From Octopus vulgaris (taxonomy: Eukaryota): 64,000 nt of DNA. Both the position numbers and the translations under genes were made by a program. The notes under the pieces are model-generated. The model worked only from the letters and a program-made list of their open reading frames with translations, was not told the DNA's origin and did not search any database. Of this stretch, positions 9,248-59,644 are shown piece by piece. The DNA lies in contig OX597823.1 of assembly GCA_951406725.2 (NCBI GenBank), positions 54,684,001-54,748,000 on the forward strand, read 5' to 3'. Numbering within the stretch: the first letter of the stretch is position 1; every line of letters begins with the position of its first letter.

Positions 9248-11098
9248 CTGAAAGACAAATGGGAATGTTAAAATTTGGTGTATGCACATAACATTACATT
9301 TGGTCATCATCTATTTAGGTCAGCTAAAATTTATTCATAAATACCTGACATAAAAAGGGTAAAGACCCTGCTTCAGTCAAGAATGGCCATGGGATTGCAC
9401 CTAGAAAGTTACCCTCCAAAGCACAAGTCTGGGCAAGGTTTTCCTCATGCATAACAACCTCCCCTCTCCACACCACCGATGTTGTCCAAGGGAAAGGCAA
9501 AAGCCGATACAGCTTGGCACCAGTGTCATTGCAACTCATTTCTACAATTACTATCTCATGATTGTGACCCTGACACTCTAACTGCTAATCCATGTATCTT
9601 CACAAATACTTGACATATCTTGTATATTATTAATAAGGTGGTGAGCTAGTAGAATCATTAGCACATTGAACAATACGTCTAGTGGCATTTCTTCTTTGTG
9701 TTCTTTATGTATTGACTTCAAATTCTGCGAAGGTCACCTTTGCCTTTTCTTCTTCCGGTGGTTAATAAAATAAAGTAGTAGTCAAATACTGGAGTTGATG
9801 AAATCAACTTACTTCTTTCAAAACTTTTGGCTTCCTTCCAAAATTAAAAAGAATTATTATCATTATTATCATCATCATAAGGTGGTGAGCTTGCAGAATC
9901 ATTAGCATGCCAGGCATAATGCTTAACAGCATTTTGTCCATCTTTATGTTCTTAGTTCAAATTCCGCTGGCATTGACTTTGCCTTCCATCCTTTCAGGTT
10001 CGATAAAATAAGTACCATTTGAGTACTGGGGTCGATGTAATAGACTTAACTCCCTGCCCTGAAATTACTGGCCTTGTGTCAAAATTTGAAGCCATTATTA
10101 TTATTGTTATTATTGAGTGAGAGAGCAGTGCATGCCATCAAAGATACACTGAGCATGTCACAAGCAGAAGTAGTGAGGGAGCATCATAGCCATGTGTTGA
10201 GAGGAATTCTTTGGGGTTTGAATAATTCATCACTGAAAACATGGGTGTTTCTTTCACCATCCATAAACAAATCTTATTGAAGTCAATGTATAAAGAACAA
10301 AAAGAAGAAAGGCCACTAGACATGTTGTTCAATGTACTAATGATTCTCCTAGCTCACCAACTTTATTAATAATATACAAGATATGTCAGGTATTTTTGAA
10401 GATACATGGATTAGCGGTTAATGACAGGCTCACAATCATGAGGCAGCCCTTGTGACCAATAAAAGAAATCATGAATAATATTAATCCGCTAACTTTTTAT
10501 TTTTGTACGTACCTGTTGTGTGTGTCACACTTACTTTAAAGAAGTGGCAAAGCGAGAGAGAGAGTGAGTGAGAGAGTGAAAGAGACAGTGAGTGGTGATG
10601 GCGTTCGTTTTGTGCTTTTAAACGTTTATCCCATCACAAGAGAAGTAGATACATAGATACATATACACATTGTTAAATTAAAAGCAGGTGAGAAGAGGGA
10701 CACAATATAAGTGAAAGAGAAAGAGAGATAGTGAGAGAGACAGTAGATGCATAAATCCAAATAAATAAAATATATTGACAGTCAATTTCACTTTTCATTA
10801 CCATCCGAGGACAAAATTAACTCACAAATGGCTGAGTACTCCACAGACATGCATAACATTAACGTAGTTCTCAGGGAGATTCAGTCTCACACAGAATATG
10901 ACAAGGCTGGCCCCTTTGAATTACAGCTACAACTCAAGTCGTATATATATGTGAATGTATTTGTGTGTGTGTATAGTATAGGTTGGTTAAAACATGTTTG
11001 CAATAATAAGTGTCGCGTGGTGGAAATAAATGCAATTACCAAATTTTCATTCATAAATCCATTTACTATTTCATTCTTTTGCATTTTAATTTGCACAT

Positions 11099-11665
11099 TT
11101 GGACCCAGAAATTTTCAACGACTGTACGCCAGAAGAAATAGAAAAGCAAGTTATTTTATCTCCTAAAAATTCTGACTGTCTTGCAATAAATGAGAAAGTT
11201 CTTAAAATTATACCAGTGGCACTTAAAATGTACTTAAGCACAGATTCAGTGTCCTGCAATAATGATGAGGAGGTTCAGAACTATCCATTTGAATTTGTAA
11301 ACTCAGTCACTCCATCCAGTATGCCTCCTCATTACCTTAACTTAAAAGTAGGGGCTATTGTAATGCTGCTAAGAAATGTTTTGACCAGTCAAGGATTACG
11401 TAATGGAACTTGCATGAAAGTGCAAAGATTTCATGAACATTGTGTAGAGGCATCATTGGTAACAGGCTCCAACAGAGGTCGTACAGTTCTAATTCCCAGA
11501 ATTAAACTTAGCCCAGTGATGCAAATATTCCATTCACACTAAACAGACTTCAATTTCCACTTCGACTTGCATATTCAATAACAATTAATAAGGCTCAAGA
11601 GCAAGCATTTGAAAAAAGTTGGAATACATTTGCCTCAACCGGTATTTTCTCATGTCGCATTTTCA
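11099..11665 (+). pseudogene. Helitron Rep-Hel Pif1-type helicase fragment
   Basis: ILSPKN, NYPFEFVNS...MPPHYLNLKVGAIVMLLRN...GLRNGT and LIPRIKL, then after a frameshift RLQFPLRLAYSITINKAQ and VGIHLPQPVFSH. These are hallmark Helitron helicase motifs. Confidence 0.9.
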
Positions 11666-20689: not shown

Positions 20690-21528
20690 GTCTATTTGTT
20701 TATCTGTCTATCTATCTATCTCTCTACCTATCTATCTATATATGTGTGCGTGTGTGTAAGTGTGGGTGTTTGTGCAAATTTATATTTGTATATCATGTCA
20801 ATTGTTCAGTGTCATTGTAACATCTACTTTTCCTTGCTTACACATGTCAGATAGAGATAATTACACCGGAATTTCTACAGCTGGGTTCCCTTTCCATCAC
20901 AAGCCCTCACCTGCTTCCAGGTAATGTATAACTCCCCTGTGGCTGGACATGTTTTCACAGATTATTGGAAGCAAATAACACTGCTTGTGTGACAGTGACA
21001 CCCATTTACATTCATACATGATATCACGACAATGCGAATCAAAGACACACACTCACACACACACACACACACACACATACCCCCCCTACACACATACACC
21101 CCCCCACACACACACACATTATACATATAAATTATATAATTATTTTATATGTACACACATGCACACACACATGTATATGTATGTACATTTGACAGGCTTC
21201 TTTCAGTTTCCATGCACCAAATCTTGTCACAAGTTTTTGGATGGCATAGGGCTACAGTTGAAGACACTTGTCCAAGATGTTATGTGGTGGGACTGAACTG
21301 AAAACTATGTGCTTGGGAAGTAAACTTCTTAACCACATATCTTTGCCTGCACCTTACTATGTGGGTGTATATATATATATATATATATTATGGAGATGTA
21401 CTTGGATAGCAAGTGACCTGATCTGAGATCGTGAGCTGGAATGAAAACAATTTCAGTGTGGAAGGTGTTTATAAGCCATTTAAGAAACACACAAAAATTG
21501 TTAGATTCACTTCAACATTTAAATTTAA

Positions 21529-21579
21529 TTTGTCAAAATATTTTTGTCGCTTTGAGTCCGAAACCTGTTCCCTGACAAA
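21529..21579 (-). ncRNA. decayed type I hammerhead, G3-C8 family (inverted copy)
   Basis: UUUGUCA-GGGAACA-G-GUUUC/GCGAC-AAAAA-UA-UUU-UGACAAA. U4 and G12 are mutated. Confidence 0.45.
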
Positions 21580-21617
21580 ATTCTGTGCTGCATCTCAGAA
21601 TTTTGTCAGCACAGAAT

Positions 21618-21668
21618 TTTGTCAGTGAACAGGTCATGGTCTCAAAGCAATGAAAATATTTTGACAAA
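21618..21668 (+). ncRNA. type I hammerhead-like fold with G3-C8 core (GUGAACA)
   Basis: 7-bp helix I UUUGUCA/UGACAAA, core GUGAACA, decayed helix II, GAAA, palindromic AAUAUU helix III region, UUU triplet. Confidence 0.6.
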
Positions 21669-21889
21669 TTAAATTTAAATGTTGAAGTGAATCTAACGGT
21701 TTTTGTGTGTTTCTTAAATGGCTTATAAACACCTTCCATGCTGCAATGGTATGTATATATATTTATATATATATATACTAACCTTGAAGCTGCCCTTTGG
21801 GTGACATTCACACTGGCTTCTGAGGAGGCCACCATTGAGGCTTTTGGCCCCACTATCATCTGAAGCAAGATCCCAGCCTTTGGTCAACC

Positions 21890-22464
<575 letters not shown>

Positions 22465-26951: not shown

Positions 26952-27485
26952 TATATACACACAAATACATAGATATGCACTCAGAGACATACATAAGTAT
27001 AAGTAAACACTCCTCTCTCTCTCTATATATATATATAGATTATACACGCACATGAACACATACACATACACTCACACATGCAAAGCACGCTTACGCACAA
27101 GCGCTCGTGCATATATAGAACTCTTTCTGATGTGGCCACACTCAGCTGATTGACAAATCATTCCCAAGATCTGCTGTCATGATGTCATCCTGTCAATATA
27201 TTGCCATGTCATCACAATATATCAAATCTTCACTTTAGCACCAATCTGTTTTAATTCCATTACTTTTAACGACATGTACTCCACTATAGACATAGACAGC
27301 TGTCTCATTTTTAAACTCACTCTCAACACACTCTCTTTTTCCTATCTCCCCTATTTTTTGTTTGTTTTTGGTAACACATCTATATATACAGCTCTATATT
27401 TGAGAGATGAGGAATTATGAGCATTATTTACATTATTTACATTATTTACATTCAACGGATATTTGTCCTCACATTGTTTGTTGTT

Positions 27486-27531
27486 AACACAACGTTTCGG
27501 CTGATATACCCTCCAGCCTTCATCAGGTATC
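27486..27531 (-). ncRNA. minimal type I hammerhead ribozyme
   Basis: GAUAC-CUGAUGA-A-GGCUG(GAGGGUAUAU)CAGCC-GAAAC-GUU-GUGUU. Palindromic AACGUU helix III. Confidence 0.75.
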
Positions 27532-27584
27532 TTGGGGAAATTTCGAACCTGAGTTTTCATTCCTAAAGTATTTTTCAATGTTAC

Positions 27585-27623
<39 letters not shown>

Positions 27624-27671
27624 CATTATTATTATTATTATTATTATTAACCACTATGCCATATGCCCACG

Positions 27672-27743
27672 GGCATATGGCGTAGTGGTTAAGAGCGCGG
27701 GCTACTAACCCCAAGATTCTGACTTTGATTCCAAGCAGTGACC
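27672..27743 (+). promoter_or_regulatory. tRNA-derived head with Pol III A box and degenerate B box
   Basis: A box TGGCGTAGTGG, anticodon-arm-like GGG-CTACTAA-CCC, B-box-like GACTTTGATTCC (AGTTCAATTCC in the 33126-33201 copy). Confidence 0.65.
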
Positions 27744-27814
27744 TGAACAATAATAATAATTATAACATCAGAAAATACCTTAGGAATGAGAACCCAGGTT
27801 CGAAATTTCCTCAA

Positions 27815-27860
27815 GACACCTGAAGAAGGTTGGAGGGTATATCAGCCGAAACGTTGTGTT
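27815..27860 (+). ncRNA. minimal type I hammerhead ribozyme
   Basis: GACAC-CUGAAGA-A-GGUUG(GAGGGUAUAU)CAGCC-GAAAC-GUU-GUGUU. Confidence 0.75.
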
Positions 27861-28217
27861 AACAACAAACAAGATGAGGAGAAATATCCGTTGAATGTAA
27901 ATAATGTAAATAATGCACATGTATATATGGTCACTTAATCTTAATTCAAAAAACCATACCTTTCAGTTTTACATGAAAAAAGGGGACAATAGTGAATATA
28001 GAACCAGGTATACTCAGCTTCATCATCATTGTTGGGATCATCGTCTTTTTCATCATCATCATTGCCATTGTCATTATAACTATCATCACCATCATCATCA
28101 TTACTATCTTCATTATCATCATCACCAGCACTACCATCATCACGTCATCATCACAATCATCATCACCACCATCACCACCATCACCACCACCACCACCACC
28201 TTCATCTCTTGTGTGTA

Positions 28218-32587: not shown

Positions 32588-32920
32588 CACACGTATATAT
32601 ATATATGTGTGTGTATATACGACAGGCTTCTTTCAGTTTCTGTCTACGAAACCCACTCACAAGGCTTTGGTTGGCCCGAGGCTATAGTAGAAGACACTTG
32701 CCCAAGGTATCATGCAGTGGGACTGAACCCAGAACCATGTAGTTGTGAAGCAAGCTTCTTACCACACAGCCACTCCTGAACCTGTTCATTTACCATATTT
32801 GTGTTTGTGTAAGATGCACAGTTTTTATTATTCTTAAGCAACAAAAATTGCTATGCATTTAAGGCATCCATTTTATAGGTGGGATGTTGAATGTCTGAGT
32901 GTATGATGAAACATATTAAA

Positions 32921-33065
32921 TATTATTTACATTATTTACATTTGACGGATATTTGTCTTCATCTTGTTTGTTGTTAACACAACATTTCGACTGATATACC
33001 CTCCAGCCTTCTTCAGGTGTCTTGGGGGAAATTTCGAACCTGCATTCTCATTCCTATTATTGTTG

Positions 33066-33099
<34 letters not shown>

Positions 33100-43939: not shown

Positions 43940-44517
43940 ACTGTAAACCTCATGGTGTTTTCCTCCTTATACTTGTCATTGTGTTTTGCCAGGGATTTCA
44001 TCTTTTTTTCTTTGTGGTAATCATTCATTTTTTCTTGTATTTTCTGAGATGGTTTGTTCATTTTGGTTGTTCTGCATCATCTTCAGTTCATCACAAGGCA
44101 ATGGAGGTGTGCTGTTGTTTACTACAGTTGAAGACCAAGGTCCATCATCTTCAGAACAGTGATCTATGATATTCTAGAGATTGGGGTCTCCTGCTGGTTT
44201 TTGGTTGCTTCTGTTTCTCTTCCCTATACATCTTTCTTTTTATATTTTATAGCTAAGAACAAAGGACTTTCAGGTGTCTCACACTTTTGCAAGTGTAGCA
44301 ACTATGTCTTTTGCAGAGCACTACAAGTCTTTTACTCTTCGTTTCTGCGCTAACAACAGGGCAAAGTTCTGCTATGATCCTGTATTTTTTTCGCTCGGGA
44401 TTTGTAAGTCTATTCTTATCCCAACCAACCAAATATTGTCCTTTGTGACAACTAGAGTAACTACCTATCCACACTTCGGTACAAAGATTACAAACCAAAG
44501 ATTAATATCACAATGCC

Positions 44518-44826
44518 CTTGACTGTTACTCTTGACTGTTACTCTTGACTGTTACTCTTGACTGTTACACTTGACTGTTACACTTGACTGTTACTCTTGA
44601 CTGTTACACTTGACTGTTACACTTGACTGTTACTCTTGACTGTTACTCTTGACTGTTACACTTGACTGTTACTCTTGACTGTTACACTTGACTGTTACAC
44701 TTGACTGTTACTTTTGACTATTACTCTTGACAGTTACACTTGACTGTTATTCTTGACTGTTACTCTGACTGTTACTCTTGACTGTTACACTTGACTGTTA
44801 CTCTTGACTGTTACACTTGACTGTTC
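44518..44826. repeat. 13-bp minisatellite CTTGACTGTTACW, about 24 units
   Basis: Counted by hand; one unit is 12 bp. Confidence 0.95.
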
Positions 44827-45634
44827 CCTTGTACTTCTCTGTCGCAAATATTGGGATACAAAAATAGGGATGGATGTATGTCTTACTATTTCAGCCAGAT
44901 TTTGGGCTGTGGTTCTTGAAATAATAAAAAAAAAATGATAATGCTAAATGATCTATATAGTCTGCCCTCTTCAAAGAAAATGATTTCTAGCCACACATTT
45001 CAGCTGTTCTTTTCTGGAGATTTGAAAACTTCCTTCAGTTTTAGGTGATACAATGATTTTTTTTTATTTGTTCCTGTACCTTATCACCAAACAGGAGATG
45101 CCATTTTGCAAAACATTTTATTTTAATGGAAAATCTTCATGTTTTGGTATTCTGCATTATTTAAAATACTAATGAAGATGCTGTTACTATGGGAAAAAGG
45201 TGGAAATGTTTTCTTTTGTCCAGAAGTGCATGTATGTGTTAGTGTTAACAACTTTTCTACCAGAGATTTTGAAAATGGATGCTAAAATATTAGTGCTTTC
45301 TTTTCCTTTATGGTTAACATTGAAATTTTGTTGTTCAATTGAAATACTGTATTTTTTATATTGTTATTTATTTTCTGTTTCAGAAATGTGTTATTTTATC
45401 TTTTATATTTTACTTGTTTCAGTTATTAGACTGTGGCCATGCTGGGGCACTGCCTTAAAGGATTTTTATTGAACAAATAAAACCTAGCACTTATTTTTTT
45501 TCATCCTGGTACATATTCTATCAGTCTCTTTTGCTGAAGTGCTAAGTTATGGAGACATAAATGCACCAATGCTGGTTGTCAAGGAATGGTGAGGGGACAA
45601 ACACAGACACAATGACACACATACATGTATAAAT

Positions 45635-50230: not shown

Positions 50231-50697
50231 GTTTTCTGACTGTCAAAAGTATTGTCTGCTCTACATTCTTTCACACTACCTTGCAATATTTTCCTGCCAC
50301 GTGAGCTCAATGTAGGTTGGCTGGTTTCGTTGTTCAGCAAGGGAACTTCTACATAGTGTCATTCCAAATGCACAAAAAATATCGGATGTTTATGACTGAA
50401 AAACCTTTCATCATAGATCCATTCAACCAAGGCTGATCTGGGCTATCAACCAAGTTTACTTTGATCCAACACAAAGGAGGTTTCTACAGTCATTTGATTA
50501 GCTAGAAGTAGCCACCAAATTTCTGCAGATCACACTCTATTCTATTTCATTTTTGGATTTGGTTTGCAAGATTCTTTATATGAGTTCGTGTGTTGAAGCA
50601 TATTCTGTTGTGTCTGGGGAGAGTCATTTTCTTTTTGTGCCTTATAATGTAACACACTCACCGGTAAAATTTCCCCTTATTTCTTATTTTTATTTTC

Positions 50698-50734
50698 CTA
50701 AAATTTTCATTGCGTCTTGCAACCTTTTCAATAG
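50698..50734 (-). ncRNA. hammerhead-like fold, U3-A8 family (inverted copy)
   Basis: CUA-UUGAAAA-G-GUUGC(AAGAC)GCAAU-GAAAA-UUU-UAG. Confidence 0.55.
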
Positions 50735-50749
50735 TTTTGAGAGTTAAAA

Positions 50750-50786
50750 CTATTGAAAAGGTTGCAAGACGCAACGAAAATTTTAG
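50750..50786 (+). ncRNA. hammerhead-like fold with U3-A8 core (UUGAAAA)
   Basis: CUA-UUGAAAA-G-GUUGC(AAGAC)GCAAC-GAAAA-UUU-UAG. Perfect 5-bp helix II, palindromic AAAAUUUU, only 3-bp helix I. Confidence 0.58.
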
Positions 50787-51040
50787 GAAAAAAAAAAAAA
50801 AGAAAAAAAGAGGAAATTTTACTGTTATATTATAAGACACAAAAAGAAAATGACTCTCCCCAGACACAACAGAACACTCTATTCTCTTAAATAAGAAATG
50901 TCACATTGGGCAATGTCCTATGTAAACAAAAAGGCAGTGTACCATCATCAGTTTAATGTCTACTTTTCCATGCTTGTATGGGTCAGACAGAGTTTATTGA
51001 GGCAGATTGTGAAAGCTCATCACACACACACACACACACA

Positions 51041-56005: not shown

Positions 56006-56635
56006 CATTGTGTACAGTGCTCAGGTGCACTACAACTCGTCTAAAGTGTATGTATAGTACATAGGGTAATGTACAAGCGCCAGGAAAAGAACAGTGCATG
56101 AGTCATGACATACACATATGTGTATGAGTATGGAAAGGGGACAATCAGGTGTAGTTTTGGCGGATTTCGGAAAGCATGAGGGCCTTAAAGGATGCAGTGT
56201 CATGGCAGTCAACAACTGACGCAAGCAGTTTGTTCCATGCTTCAGCAACTCTGAGCGTGAAAAAATGTTTCTGAAAGTCATGGGAGCTGTGCTGTTTTCT
56301 GACTTTGTAGGCATGTCCACGTGTTATGGACACATGGAAATCAAAAAGGTGTTCAGTGTTGTTGTTGGTGAGGTGGTTGATAACTTTGTGGGTGTTTACC
56401 AAGTCCATCGCCAGACGCCGGAGCTTCAGTGAATCCATGCCCAGGGAAACAAGGCGCTCAGAGTATGGTAGGTGTCTGATGGAGGGTATGCATTTAGTTG
56501 CACGTCTCTGAACAGATTCCAGGAGGTCAATGTTCTGAGCAAGATAGGGGTTCCAAACTGATGATGCGAATTCCAAGTGTGGTCGTACCATAGCTGCATA
56601 CAGCTTTAAATAGATGGCTGGAGAGCGGCTAACAC
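55990..56635 (-). mobile_element. CR1-clade LINE 5'-truncated 3' fragment
   Basis: ORF 56145-56591: VRPHLEFASSVWNP, LESVQRRATK, YSERL, LRRL..DL, TRGH, FFTLRV..AWNKL. The 3' tail GTAGTGCACCTGAGCACTGTA + (TTA)n is also seen at 1-25 and about 3615. Confidence 0.92.
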
Positions 56636-57175
56636 ATATTATAAAATGCTGTAAATTTAGAATTATTCCAATAGTGTTGCCATTTAGATTACATGCAATC
56701 TCTCTTTATGTCAACGTTACATTAATTTAGTATTACCAAATCTATTGCAATGAGCAAGAAAAAATATGACACGGTACTGAGGAAGGGATAGCATCATCTC
56801 AATGACAATATTAGCTCAAACGATGTTTGAACTAATATTATCTATTTCTTATTGCATAATTTTCTTTTCTAATTTGGTTTATGATCCTCATTACTTTAAA
56901 TATACTGAAAAAAACTTAACTGTTAATTTTTGTGCAGATGGTGCAGAATTGGCTGTATGGTTAATAAGTGTGCTTGCCAAGCATATGATTTGAGGTTCAG
57001 TCCCATTATGTGAAGACTTGGGCAAGTACCTTCTACTATAGCTCTAGGCTGATCAAAGCATTGTGAGTGGTTGACAGAATCTGAAAACTCATCATATATT
57101 ATGTGTGTATATATATATCTTCCAGGTATCATGTATCCCAAAAAGAAGCACTCTCTAAAACAGAATTTCAGGTTT

Positions 57176-58729: not shown

Positions 58730-59644
58730 ACAATTTGGACGCTTGTTATGTAATAAAGTTTTGTATAAAATCGGGCAAAAGTGCTACAGACACTTATGAA
58801 ATGCTCCAGACTTCTTATGGATTAACTTGTATGAGCCAAGCATCCGTTTTTGCTGGTACAAGAGGTTCAAGGACAGCATAGAAGAAGTGAATGATGAGAG
58901 GTATGAGAGGGAGAGGAACATCAGAAGAACTGGTTGAGAAAATTCACAATTTTTTGCATGAAGACCATTGTGTCTATAAGGACAATAAGTGTATAGTTTA
59001 GAGTTGGTGTGGCAAATGTACAGAGAATTATTCATGACTACTCCAAACAAGCTCAAAAAGAAAGATACTTTGGTGACAGCAGGGAGATGGTTGAGCTCAT
59101 TACCTTTCAATCCAAGAGTACACGAGTCTCTGGTGACTTGTGACGAAAGCTGGATCTACTGTTATGATTTAGAGATCAAGAATCAGAGTGTCCAATGGAA
59201 GCATTCTGGTTTCCCCAGACCAAAGAATGTCAGACAAAGCATGTCCACCAGGAAGCTCATGATAATTCCCTATTTTGACAGTCAAGGCATCATTTACATC
59301 CAGTGGGTTCCCTCTGGCCAGACAGTCAACAAAGAGTAATTTGTAAAGATTTTGAGGGACTTCAGGAAGGGATTTCACCACAAAAGGCACCGCTCGGTTT
59401 GTAGCTTGCACCAGAACAATACACCAGTCCACTCTTCCATTCTGGTAACCAATTACTTGATAGATATGGACATCAAAACTGTCTCTCACCCTCCCTATAA
59501 TCTACATTTTGCTCCCTGTAGCTTTTTGTTTTTCCCAGAGCTGAAGGAAACTATGACAAAGGTCCTGGACATTTTCACTTTGGAGGGCTTCTATAGCGGG
59601 GGATGTTTCCCAAAATCTAAAAACTTTTGGAATGCACCTTGTAA
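58730..59644 (+). pseudogene. mariner (DD34D, irritans-like) transposase, multiply disrupted
   Basis: KFCIKSGKSATDTYEML; LVTCDESWIYCYD; WVPSGQTVN; LHQNNTPVH; HPPY..FAPCSFLFFPELKE. Confidence 0.88.

What the first reader, a model, noticed from the sequence alone, without database searches (positions are those of the whole stretch)
50698..50786. Second core-covariant hammerhead (U3-A8) sharing architecture with the G3-C8 family
Seen: CUA-UUGAAAA-G-GUUGC(AAGAC)GCAAC-GAAAA-UUU-UAG in both arms of an inverted insert with an 11-bp flanking duplication. It shares with the 21.6-kb family A7, an extra G after A9, a GU(U/C)GC/GC(A/G)AC helix II, A15.2-U16.2 and a UUU triplet, but uses U3-A8. Inferred: one lineage of PLE ribozymes has explored alternative 3-8 pairs, giving natural covariation across families. 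Helix I is only 3 bp, so activity may need dimerisation or protein help.
Basis: partly seen in the sequence, partly recalled or inferred. Interest (0 to 1): 0.75.

Follow-up and report, generated by a model that had tools for sequence, protein, structure and literature searches.

The report
Variant hammerhead ribozyme in Penelope retrotransposon
This is a short, inverted fragment of a very abundant animal repeat, likely a Penelope-type retrotransposon, carrying a predicted self-cutting RNA motif with a base-pair swap already described in such elements; its main added value is that a likely related repeat nearby carries a different swap at the same pair.

Summary
The motif is real. A minimal type-I hammerhead with U3-A8 lies at 50750-50786(+) and 50698-50734(-), in a 331-bp head-to-head insert with an 11-12-bp flanking duplication and a 59-nt one-sided tail. 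In public runs the family is extremely abundant, ends at two discrete 3' points and often shows opposite-strand joints, which is the Penelope-like element (PLE) signature. No RT could be linked.

U3-A8 in PLE hammerheads is published (Cervera and de la Pena 2014: about 1,300 hits in Schistosoma), as are the extra nucleotide, short helix I, palindromic helix III and opposite-strand pairs. This scan also noted U3-A8 in a phage.

The shared-lineage idea gained independent support. Outside the ribozyme, the tails of the U3-A8 and 21.6-kb G3-C8 inserts align in register (30 of 44 nt; 3 of 20,928 control windows as good), while the window's C3-G8 family does not align. The G3-C8 helix II is reconstructed, not seen. 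Dimerisation would rescue helix III, not helix I. At this locus a 135-bp fold-back likely silences both motifs.

Verdict: new member of a known kind; the sister G3-C8 family is the more interesting lead.

The parts
50532..50543 (+). Left copy of the 11-12-bp flanking (target-site) duplication
   Evidence: a flank contig of run X9 stops aligning at exactly 50543 with 91 further letters unaligned, which fits an empty site in another organism (record 17; letters not seen)
50544..50602 (-). 59-nt tail, present only on the left arm; lies between the family's two 3' end points
   Evidence: loose-end peaks at 50543 and 50600/50602
50550..50627 (-). 26-codon ATG-started frame, possibly the start of the element's protein (unconfirmed)
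   Evidence: no database homologue
50603..50740 (-). Left arm: 5'-truncated element end, read on the minus strand
   Evidence: 120 of 127 aligned bases identical to the right arm, 11 gap columns
50698..50734 (-). Minimal type-I hammerhead, U3-A8, with a G10.1.U11.1 wobble (likely CpG decay)
50740..50874 (+). Right arm: 5'-truncated element end without the tail; 9 nt shorter internally than the left arm
50750..50786 (+). Minimal type-I hammerhead with intact core, U3-A8; predicted cut between 50783 and 50784
50874..50885 (+). Right copy of the flanking duplication
21391..21750 (.). Comparator: head-to-head insert of the G3-C8 family in a (TA)n tract, with a 57-nt one-sided tail that aligns with the U3-A8 tail; both ribozyme copies are decayed
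27431..27915 (.). Comparator: inverted pair of canonical C3-G8 minimal hammerheads (27526 -, 27820 +); a third copy lies at 33016 (-). No detectable homology to the U3-A8 or G3-C8 inserts downstream of the ribozyme

Best explanation
The insert holds two oppositely oriented, 5'-truncated ends of a very abundant repeat that is likely a Penelope-like retrotransposon, and each end carries a minimal hammerhead core with a U3-A8 pair that is predicted to cut RNA only as a dimer or with protein help. Shown: the core, the inverted arms, the 59-nt tail, the 11-12-bp duplication, the two family-wide 3' ends and the similarity to the G3-C8 insert. Inferred from work on the anole PLE: the element's RT/GIY-YIG protein nicked both target strands about 11-12 nt apart and primed reverse transcription at two internal RNA sites 59 nt apart; both cDNAs stopped about 10 nt upstream of the ribozyme and were joined head to head. 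Inferred: in the parent element two copies pair through the AAUU palindrome to build helix III and cut after U17, with U3-A8 standing in for C3-G8. Predicted: this genomic copy is a dead relic, because a read-through RNA folds back on itself. Likely (about 0.7): the U3-A8 and G3-C8 families descend from one PLE ancestor.
For: Descriptor 5 hits against 2 in 200 shuffles. Family depth 14,000-128,000 times the flank in runs X5 and X9 (the tool warns this is no copy number). Loose ends: X5 277 at 50543, 163 at 50600, 92 at 50602; X9 140 at 50543; X17 36 at 50543 and 9 at 50600; AT-rich flanks; 10 of 15 shown joints are opposite-strand (723 loose-end rows and 56 joints not shown). The tail as the interval between two RT start sites, extension of both strands, and a protein-assisted ribozyme are reported for the anole PLE (PMC11167929). 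An inverted truncated copy plus tail is standard PLE anatomy (PMC8557442). All four marks of PLE minimal hammerheads are present (PMC4209133). Fold-back -174.7 kcal/mol against -122.5 with the hammerhead helices forced. Kinship: downstream of the ribozyme 0 of 2000 shuffles reach the U-G score, against 107 and 492 of 2000 for the two C3-G8 pairings.
Against: No RT or GIY-YIG sequence could be tied to the family: none among 14 window frames scanned in Pfam, no homologue, only two repeat-driven false hits. The tail (59 nt) is longer than the 30-40 nt cited for PLEs. The active dimer is not favoured by nearest-neighbour energies (-5.4 against -12.0 kcal/mol for two monomers), though that model lacks tertiary terms. 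Kinship is weak at the DNA level (84 identities, 55 mismatches, 17 gaps): 3 of 10,422 and 5 of 10,416 background windows scored as well under lenient scoring, and the right arms alone are not significant (1236 of 10,448). The peptide similarity falls to 69 of 500 when all frames are allowed. No activity was measured.
Confidence: 0.82

Rival explanations
1. The PLE reading is right, but the U3-A8 and G3-C8 families are unrelated; each changed the 3-8 pair on its own and the likeness is convergence or chance in A-rich sequence.
For: DNA identity is only about 54% of columns; a few background windows score as well under lenient scoring; the right arms alone are not significant. The nhmmer E-value is 0.25. 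GUUGC/GCAAC also occurs in Drosophila rows. U-A to G-C needs two transversions.
Against: The only non-self nhmmer hit in 128,000 bases is the G3-C8 tail, collinear and in the same orientation. The tails align ungapped, 30 of 44, within 2 nt of register. 0 of 10,422 and 0 of 10,416 windows reach the score under strict scoring. Tail lengths are 59 and 57 nt. The two share features that are each rare in the survey (1 of 56).
Confidence: 0.25
2. The motif is a catalytically dead or vestigial hammerhead: the family spread without needing self-cleavage, and U3-A8 is drift from C3-G8 by two transitions, later fixed by amplification.
For: In the anole PLE, ribozyme mutants still insert in vitro and no RNA ends map to the cut site. 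Naiad PLEs thrive without hammerheads. Published minimal motifs cut poorly in vitro. The dimer energy is unfavourable.
Against: Every other core position and both helices are intact in the right arm. U3-A8 keeps the Watson-Crick pair and is described as active in vitro. No change at U3 or A8 was listed among the variant rows shown (12 rows not shown).
Confidence: 0.3
3. The insert is a MITE or fold-back DNA transposon with long terminal inverted repeats, and the hammerhead-like string is incidental.
For: A perfect central hairpin and a flanking duplication.
Against: The arms are unequal, with a 59-nt one-sided extension. Inversion joints vary among copies and the family has two discrete 3' ends. 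The same anatomy recurs in two other hammerhead-bearing inserts in the window. The descriptor is rarely met by chance.
Confidence: 0.04

Closest known systems
U3-A8 minimal hammerheads of Schistosoma mansoni Cercyon PLEs (Cervera and de la Pena 2014, PMC4209133)
   Same: U3-A8 core, extra nucleotide after A9, G10.1-C11.1, palindromic 15.2-16.2, no helix III. Family Sm(4) has the same core letters through A9, a 3-bp helix I and U17. Opposite-strand pairs 100-700 bp apart are described.
   Different: Here the extra nucleotide is G (1 of 56 rows in Fig. S3) and 15.2-16.2 is A-U (loop-less in 1 of 56); helix II is 5 bp; the host differs; no RT link was shown here; a likely sister family has G3-C8 (0 of 56 rows).
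PAc, the Poseidon PLE of Anolis carolinensis (PMC11167929)
   Same: Hammerhead near the ORF start, two internal RT start sites bounding a tail, both strands extended, AT-rich targets; ribozyme protein-assisted; engineered C3G/G8C partly active.
   Different: PAc has C3-G8 and its ORF starts at stem II; here the candidate ATG lies about 73 nt after the cut site and the tail is 59 nt.
Natural U3-A8 hammerheads (Perreault et al. 2011, PMC3088659)
   Same: The same compensated core pair, described as occurring in several natural examples and active in vitro.
   Different: The passages read do not describe those examples as helix-III-less motifs of animal retroelements.
Animal non-LTR retrozymes (bioRxiv 10.64898/2026.07.22.740005)
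   Same: Non-coding, PLE-derived repeats with type-I hammerheads.
   Different: Retrozymes are head-to-tail tandem arrays; this is a head-to-head pair with tail and duplication, and no further copy lies in the window.

Membership tests
PLE minimal type-I hammerhead | Catalytic boxes with a Watson-Crick 3-8 pair, GAAA, and UH at 16.1-17 | tested here: met
   U3-A8 core in both arms
PLE minimal type-I hammerhead | One extra nucleotide between A9 and 10.1, and G10.1-C11.1 | tested here: met
   Extra G; G-C in the right arm and in 79-93% of family depth
PLE minimal type-I hammerhead | Helix III reduced to a palindrome; short helix I | tested here: met
   AAUU palindrome, 3-bp helix I; 29 of 56 published rows have 2-3 bp
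PLE minimal type-I hammerhead | Self-cleavage as a dimer or with protein help | not testable with these tools
   Only energy estimates
Penelope-like element | ORF with telomerase-like RT and GIY-YIG endonuclease | tested here: inconclusive
   The copy is truncated; no link found; host genome not held
Penelope-like element | Optional tail between two discrete 3' ends | tested here: met
   59-nt one-sided tail; loose-end peaks at 50543 and 50600/50602; longer than the 30-40 nt cited
Penelope-like element | Inverted 5'-truncated copies within insertions | tested here: met
   This locus; 10 of 15 shown joints are opposite-strand
Penelope-like element | Direct pseudo-LTRs flanking the ORF in tandem copies | not testable with these tools
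   No full-length copy could be read
Non-LTR retrozyme | Head-to-tail tandem monomers each with a hammerhead | tested here: not met
   Only the two inverted arms in the window; the rest of the genome was not examined
MITE / fold-back DNA transposon | Inverted repeats reaching both termini and a fixed internal structure | tested here: not met
   One arm overhangs by 59 nt; inversion joints vary among copies

The most novel reading that the evidence does not exclude
One PLE lineage has produced two successful sister families whose working hammerheads use U3-A8 and G3-C8, beside an unrelated C3-G8 family in the same genome. That would be a natural three-way test of the C3-G8 core pair, with G3-C8 (found in the papers I could search only as an engineered, partly active mutant) selected in nature, and it would imply large ribozyme families invisible to CUGANGA descriptors.
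Probability: 0.4. Interest if true: 0.58.

Novelty: new member of a known kind. Interest (0 to 1): 0.3.

Why it matters
On its own the U3-A8 motif adds one more host to a variant published in 2014. It matters more as half of a pair: if the U3-A8 and G3-C8 families are true sisters and both cut, they give evolutionary confirmation that any Watson-Crick pair at 3-8 can be selected, and a tractable system to ask whether PLE proteins compensate for weak cores. That bears on the open question of whether PLE hammerheads have a function at all. In practice, CUGANGA-only descriptors would miss a family whose depth is four to five orders of magnitude above single-copy flank.

Tried and rejected
Host genome not held, so no genome-wide tabulation of 3-8 pairs. 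Rfam: no hammerhead among the 150 rows shown of 354; the microRNA matches are generic hairpins below gathering score. Exact motif and shared descriptor in viral contigs: 0 and 0. Shared descriptor in metagenomes: 1 match, inside a 1239-aa bacterial ORF, rejected as chance. Phage collection: 2 records of one Propionibacterium phage, a 35-nt match without a hammerhead core, rejected. Protein link: none for either family's tail frame; 2 hits among 1.84 billion representatives, both unrelated repeat proteins; Atlas best score 0.79, a lead only and unannotated. An AC-rich stem-loop at the inner 3' end is present in the fold but not significant (z -0.72), so not counted. Codon positions of eight family variants in the candidate frame are mixed, so coding constraint is not shown. 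Expression: no RNA holder listed; run X17 is only guessed to be RNA; raw-read run X23 gave 0 laid reads, so no test. Lunse et al. 2017 and Przybilski and Hammann 2007 are not held; they may already hold G3-C8 examples or rate data. Searches for a natural G3-C8 found only engineered cases; the library lacks most subscription papers, so this is no proof of absence.

Full report
Observation. The window is microsatellite-rich animal DNA; from recall its repeats look cephalopod-like, which no call tested, and no host genome is held. The minus-strand copy at 50734-50698 differs by one base in the motif, giving a G10.1.U11.1 wobble. A strict descriptor found 5 motifs in the window (these two, and three canonical C3-G8 motifs at 27526, 27820 and 33016) against 2 in total in 200 dinucleotide-shuffled windows. 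Rfam showed no hammerhead among the 150 best of 354 matches.

Anatomy of the insert. The two arms meet head to head at 50740, about 10 nt upstream of each ribozyme. They share 120 of 127 aligned bases with 11 gap columns. The left arm runs 59 nt further than the right (50544-50602). A 12-nt direct repeat, whose first base is ambiguous, flanks the whole (50532-50543 and 50874-50885). The 21.6-kb insert has the same build, with a 57-nt one-sided extension, in a (TA)n tract.

The family elsewhere. Twenty of 24 listed runs, from 13 studies and five organism labels, hold half or more of the sampled words. I laid four runs on the left arm and flank only; one (raw reads) gave nothing and is no test. 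In X5 and X9 the summed depth on the element is 14,000-128,000 times that on the flank; the tool warns this is no copy number, but the family is plainly very abundant. Loose ends pile up at two points, 50543 (277, 140 and 36 records in X5, X9, X17) and 50600/50602 (163 and 92 in X5, 9 in X17), with AT-rich flanks; 723 rows were not shown. Ten of the 15 joints shown are opposite-strand (56 not shown). One X9 flank contig stops at exactly 50543 with 91 unaligned letters, which fits an empty site; one X5 contig crosses the junction by 27 letters, below the tool's 31-letter bar for bridging. No variant at U3 or A8 appears among the rows shown, but 12 rows were hidden and only records of 80% likeness or more were counted, so fixation is suggested, not shown. 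The core variants shown are mainly CpG-type (G12>A at 2-7%).

What it is. Two discrete 3' ends bounding an optional tail, inverted truncated copies and AT-rich targets are the described marks of PLE insertions (PMC8557442, passages). In the anole PLE the protein nicks and extends both strands and starts reverse transcription at two internal sites, the tail being the interval between them (PMC11167929, main text read). I infer that this insert arose so. The defining RT plus GIY-YIG ORF could not be tied to it: 14 window frames gave transposase and helicase fragments only, and searches with the tail frames found nothing real. Membership therefore rests on anatomy and on the ribozyme.

How the ribozyme would work. 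Helix III is reduced to the palindrome AAUU, so two copies would have to pair there to build it, the dimer mode described for these motifs (PMC4209133, parts 1-2 of 4 read; review passages citing Lunse et al.). Nearest-neighbour energy does not favour the bare dimer (-5.4 against -12.0 kcal/mol), in line with the low reported activity and with the protein dependence of the anole ribozyme. At this locus the two motifs lie on opposite strands, and a read-through RNA folds back at -174.7 kcal/mol against -122.5 with the hammerhead helices forced, so this copy is likely silent. No activity was measured.

Novelty of U3-A8. It is known. Cervera and de la Pena report U3-A8 in S. mansoni Cercyon PLEs, about 1,300 hits, and opposite-strand pairs 100-700 bp apart; they list the extra nucleotide, G10.1-C11.1 and the palindromic 15.2-16.2 as general features. 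In their Fig. S3, 2 of 56 rows are U3-A8, 1 is U3.G8 and none is G3-C8; one U3-A8 family has a near-identical C3-G8 counterpart in S. japonicum. Perreault et al. reported natural U3-A8 in 2011 (passages).

Kinship with the G3-C8 family. Some are weak (A7; the GUUGC/GCAAC stem recurs in Drosophila rows), and the quoted G3-C8 helix II is reconstructed, since both 21.6-kb arms are decayed. Two are rare: extra G and loop-less A15.2-U16.2, 1 of 56 each. I tested kinship outside the ribozyme. The only non-self nhmmer hit of the U3-A8 arm in the window is the G3-C8 left arm, collinear (E 0.25). Downstream of the ribozyme, 0 of 2000 shuffles reach the score, against 107 and 492 of 2000 for the pairings with the C3-G8 family. 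Against real window DNA, 3 of 10,422 and 5 of 10,416 windows score as well under lenient scoring and 0 under strict scoring. The tails align without gaps, 30 of 44 nt, within 2 nt of register, with 3 of 20,928 overlapping windows as good. The ATG-started frames give similar peptides (24 of 20,000 shuffles), but only 69 of 500 when all frames are allowed. Against this, overall identity is 84 of 156 columns and the right arms alone are not significant (1236 of 10,448). These tests overlap and are not independent of each other. I put common descent at about 0.7; only an RT tree can settle it.

Literature limits. Searches for natural G3-C8 returned only engineered cases. Lunse et al. 2017 and Przybilski and Hammann 2007 could not be read and may bear on this. 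Also seen: passages of PMC6155905 and PMC6962438, and part 1 of 5 of the retrozyme preprint; its supplements were not seen.

Verdict. A real, ordinary-class PLE minimal hammerhead with a published core variant, in a relic insertion: new member of a known kind, interest 0.3. The worthwhile residue is the likely sister relationship with a G3-C8 family, which makes a clean comparative test possible.

Noticed in passing
window 27431-27915 and 32912-33085: Three canonical C3-G8 minimal hammerheads of a third PLE-like family, two as an inverted pair; three different 3-8 pairs thus occur within 30 kb.
   Followed up: partly
window 21391-21750: G3-C8 insert in a (TA)n tract; both ribozyme copies are decayed and only the right arm keeps G3-U4-G5-A6-A7-C8-A9 with GAAA. 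Its family-wide state was not measured.
   Followed up: partly
window 50597 (loose ends): 98 (X5) and 77 (X9) records share the tail but diverge upstream; the printed X5 letters read in the candidate frame as a similar peptide with synonymous and R/K changes (agreement only about 0.5). This hints at a further sister subfamily whose ribozyme was not seen.
   Followed up: no
window 50654-50662 (left arm): The 9 nt present only in the left arm include a GTGAGT splice-donor-like word and an in-frame stop upstream of the candidate ATG; PLEs are known to keep introns.
   Followed up: no
window 11090-11542, 22171-22464, 58989-59339: Fragments of a Pif1 helicase (likely Helitron), a DDE_3 transposase and a Transposase_1 (likely mariner) domain.
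   Followed up: partly
window 56145-56705 (-): A 186-aa frame that from recall resembles the C-terminus of a LINE reverse-transcriptase protein; no Pfam match.
   Followed up: no
window 28471 (+): A U3/U8 hammerhead-like string picked up by the loose descriptor only; probably chance.
   Followed up: no
window 44466-44854: A 13-bp tandem array.
   Followed up: no
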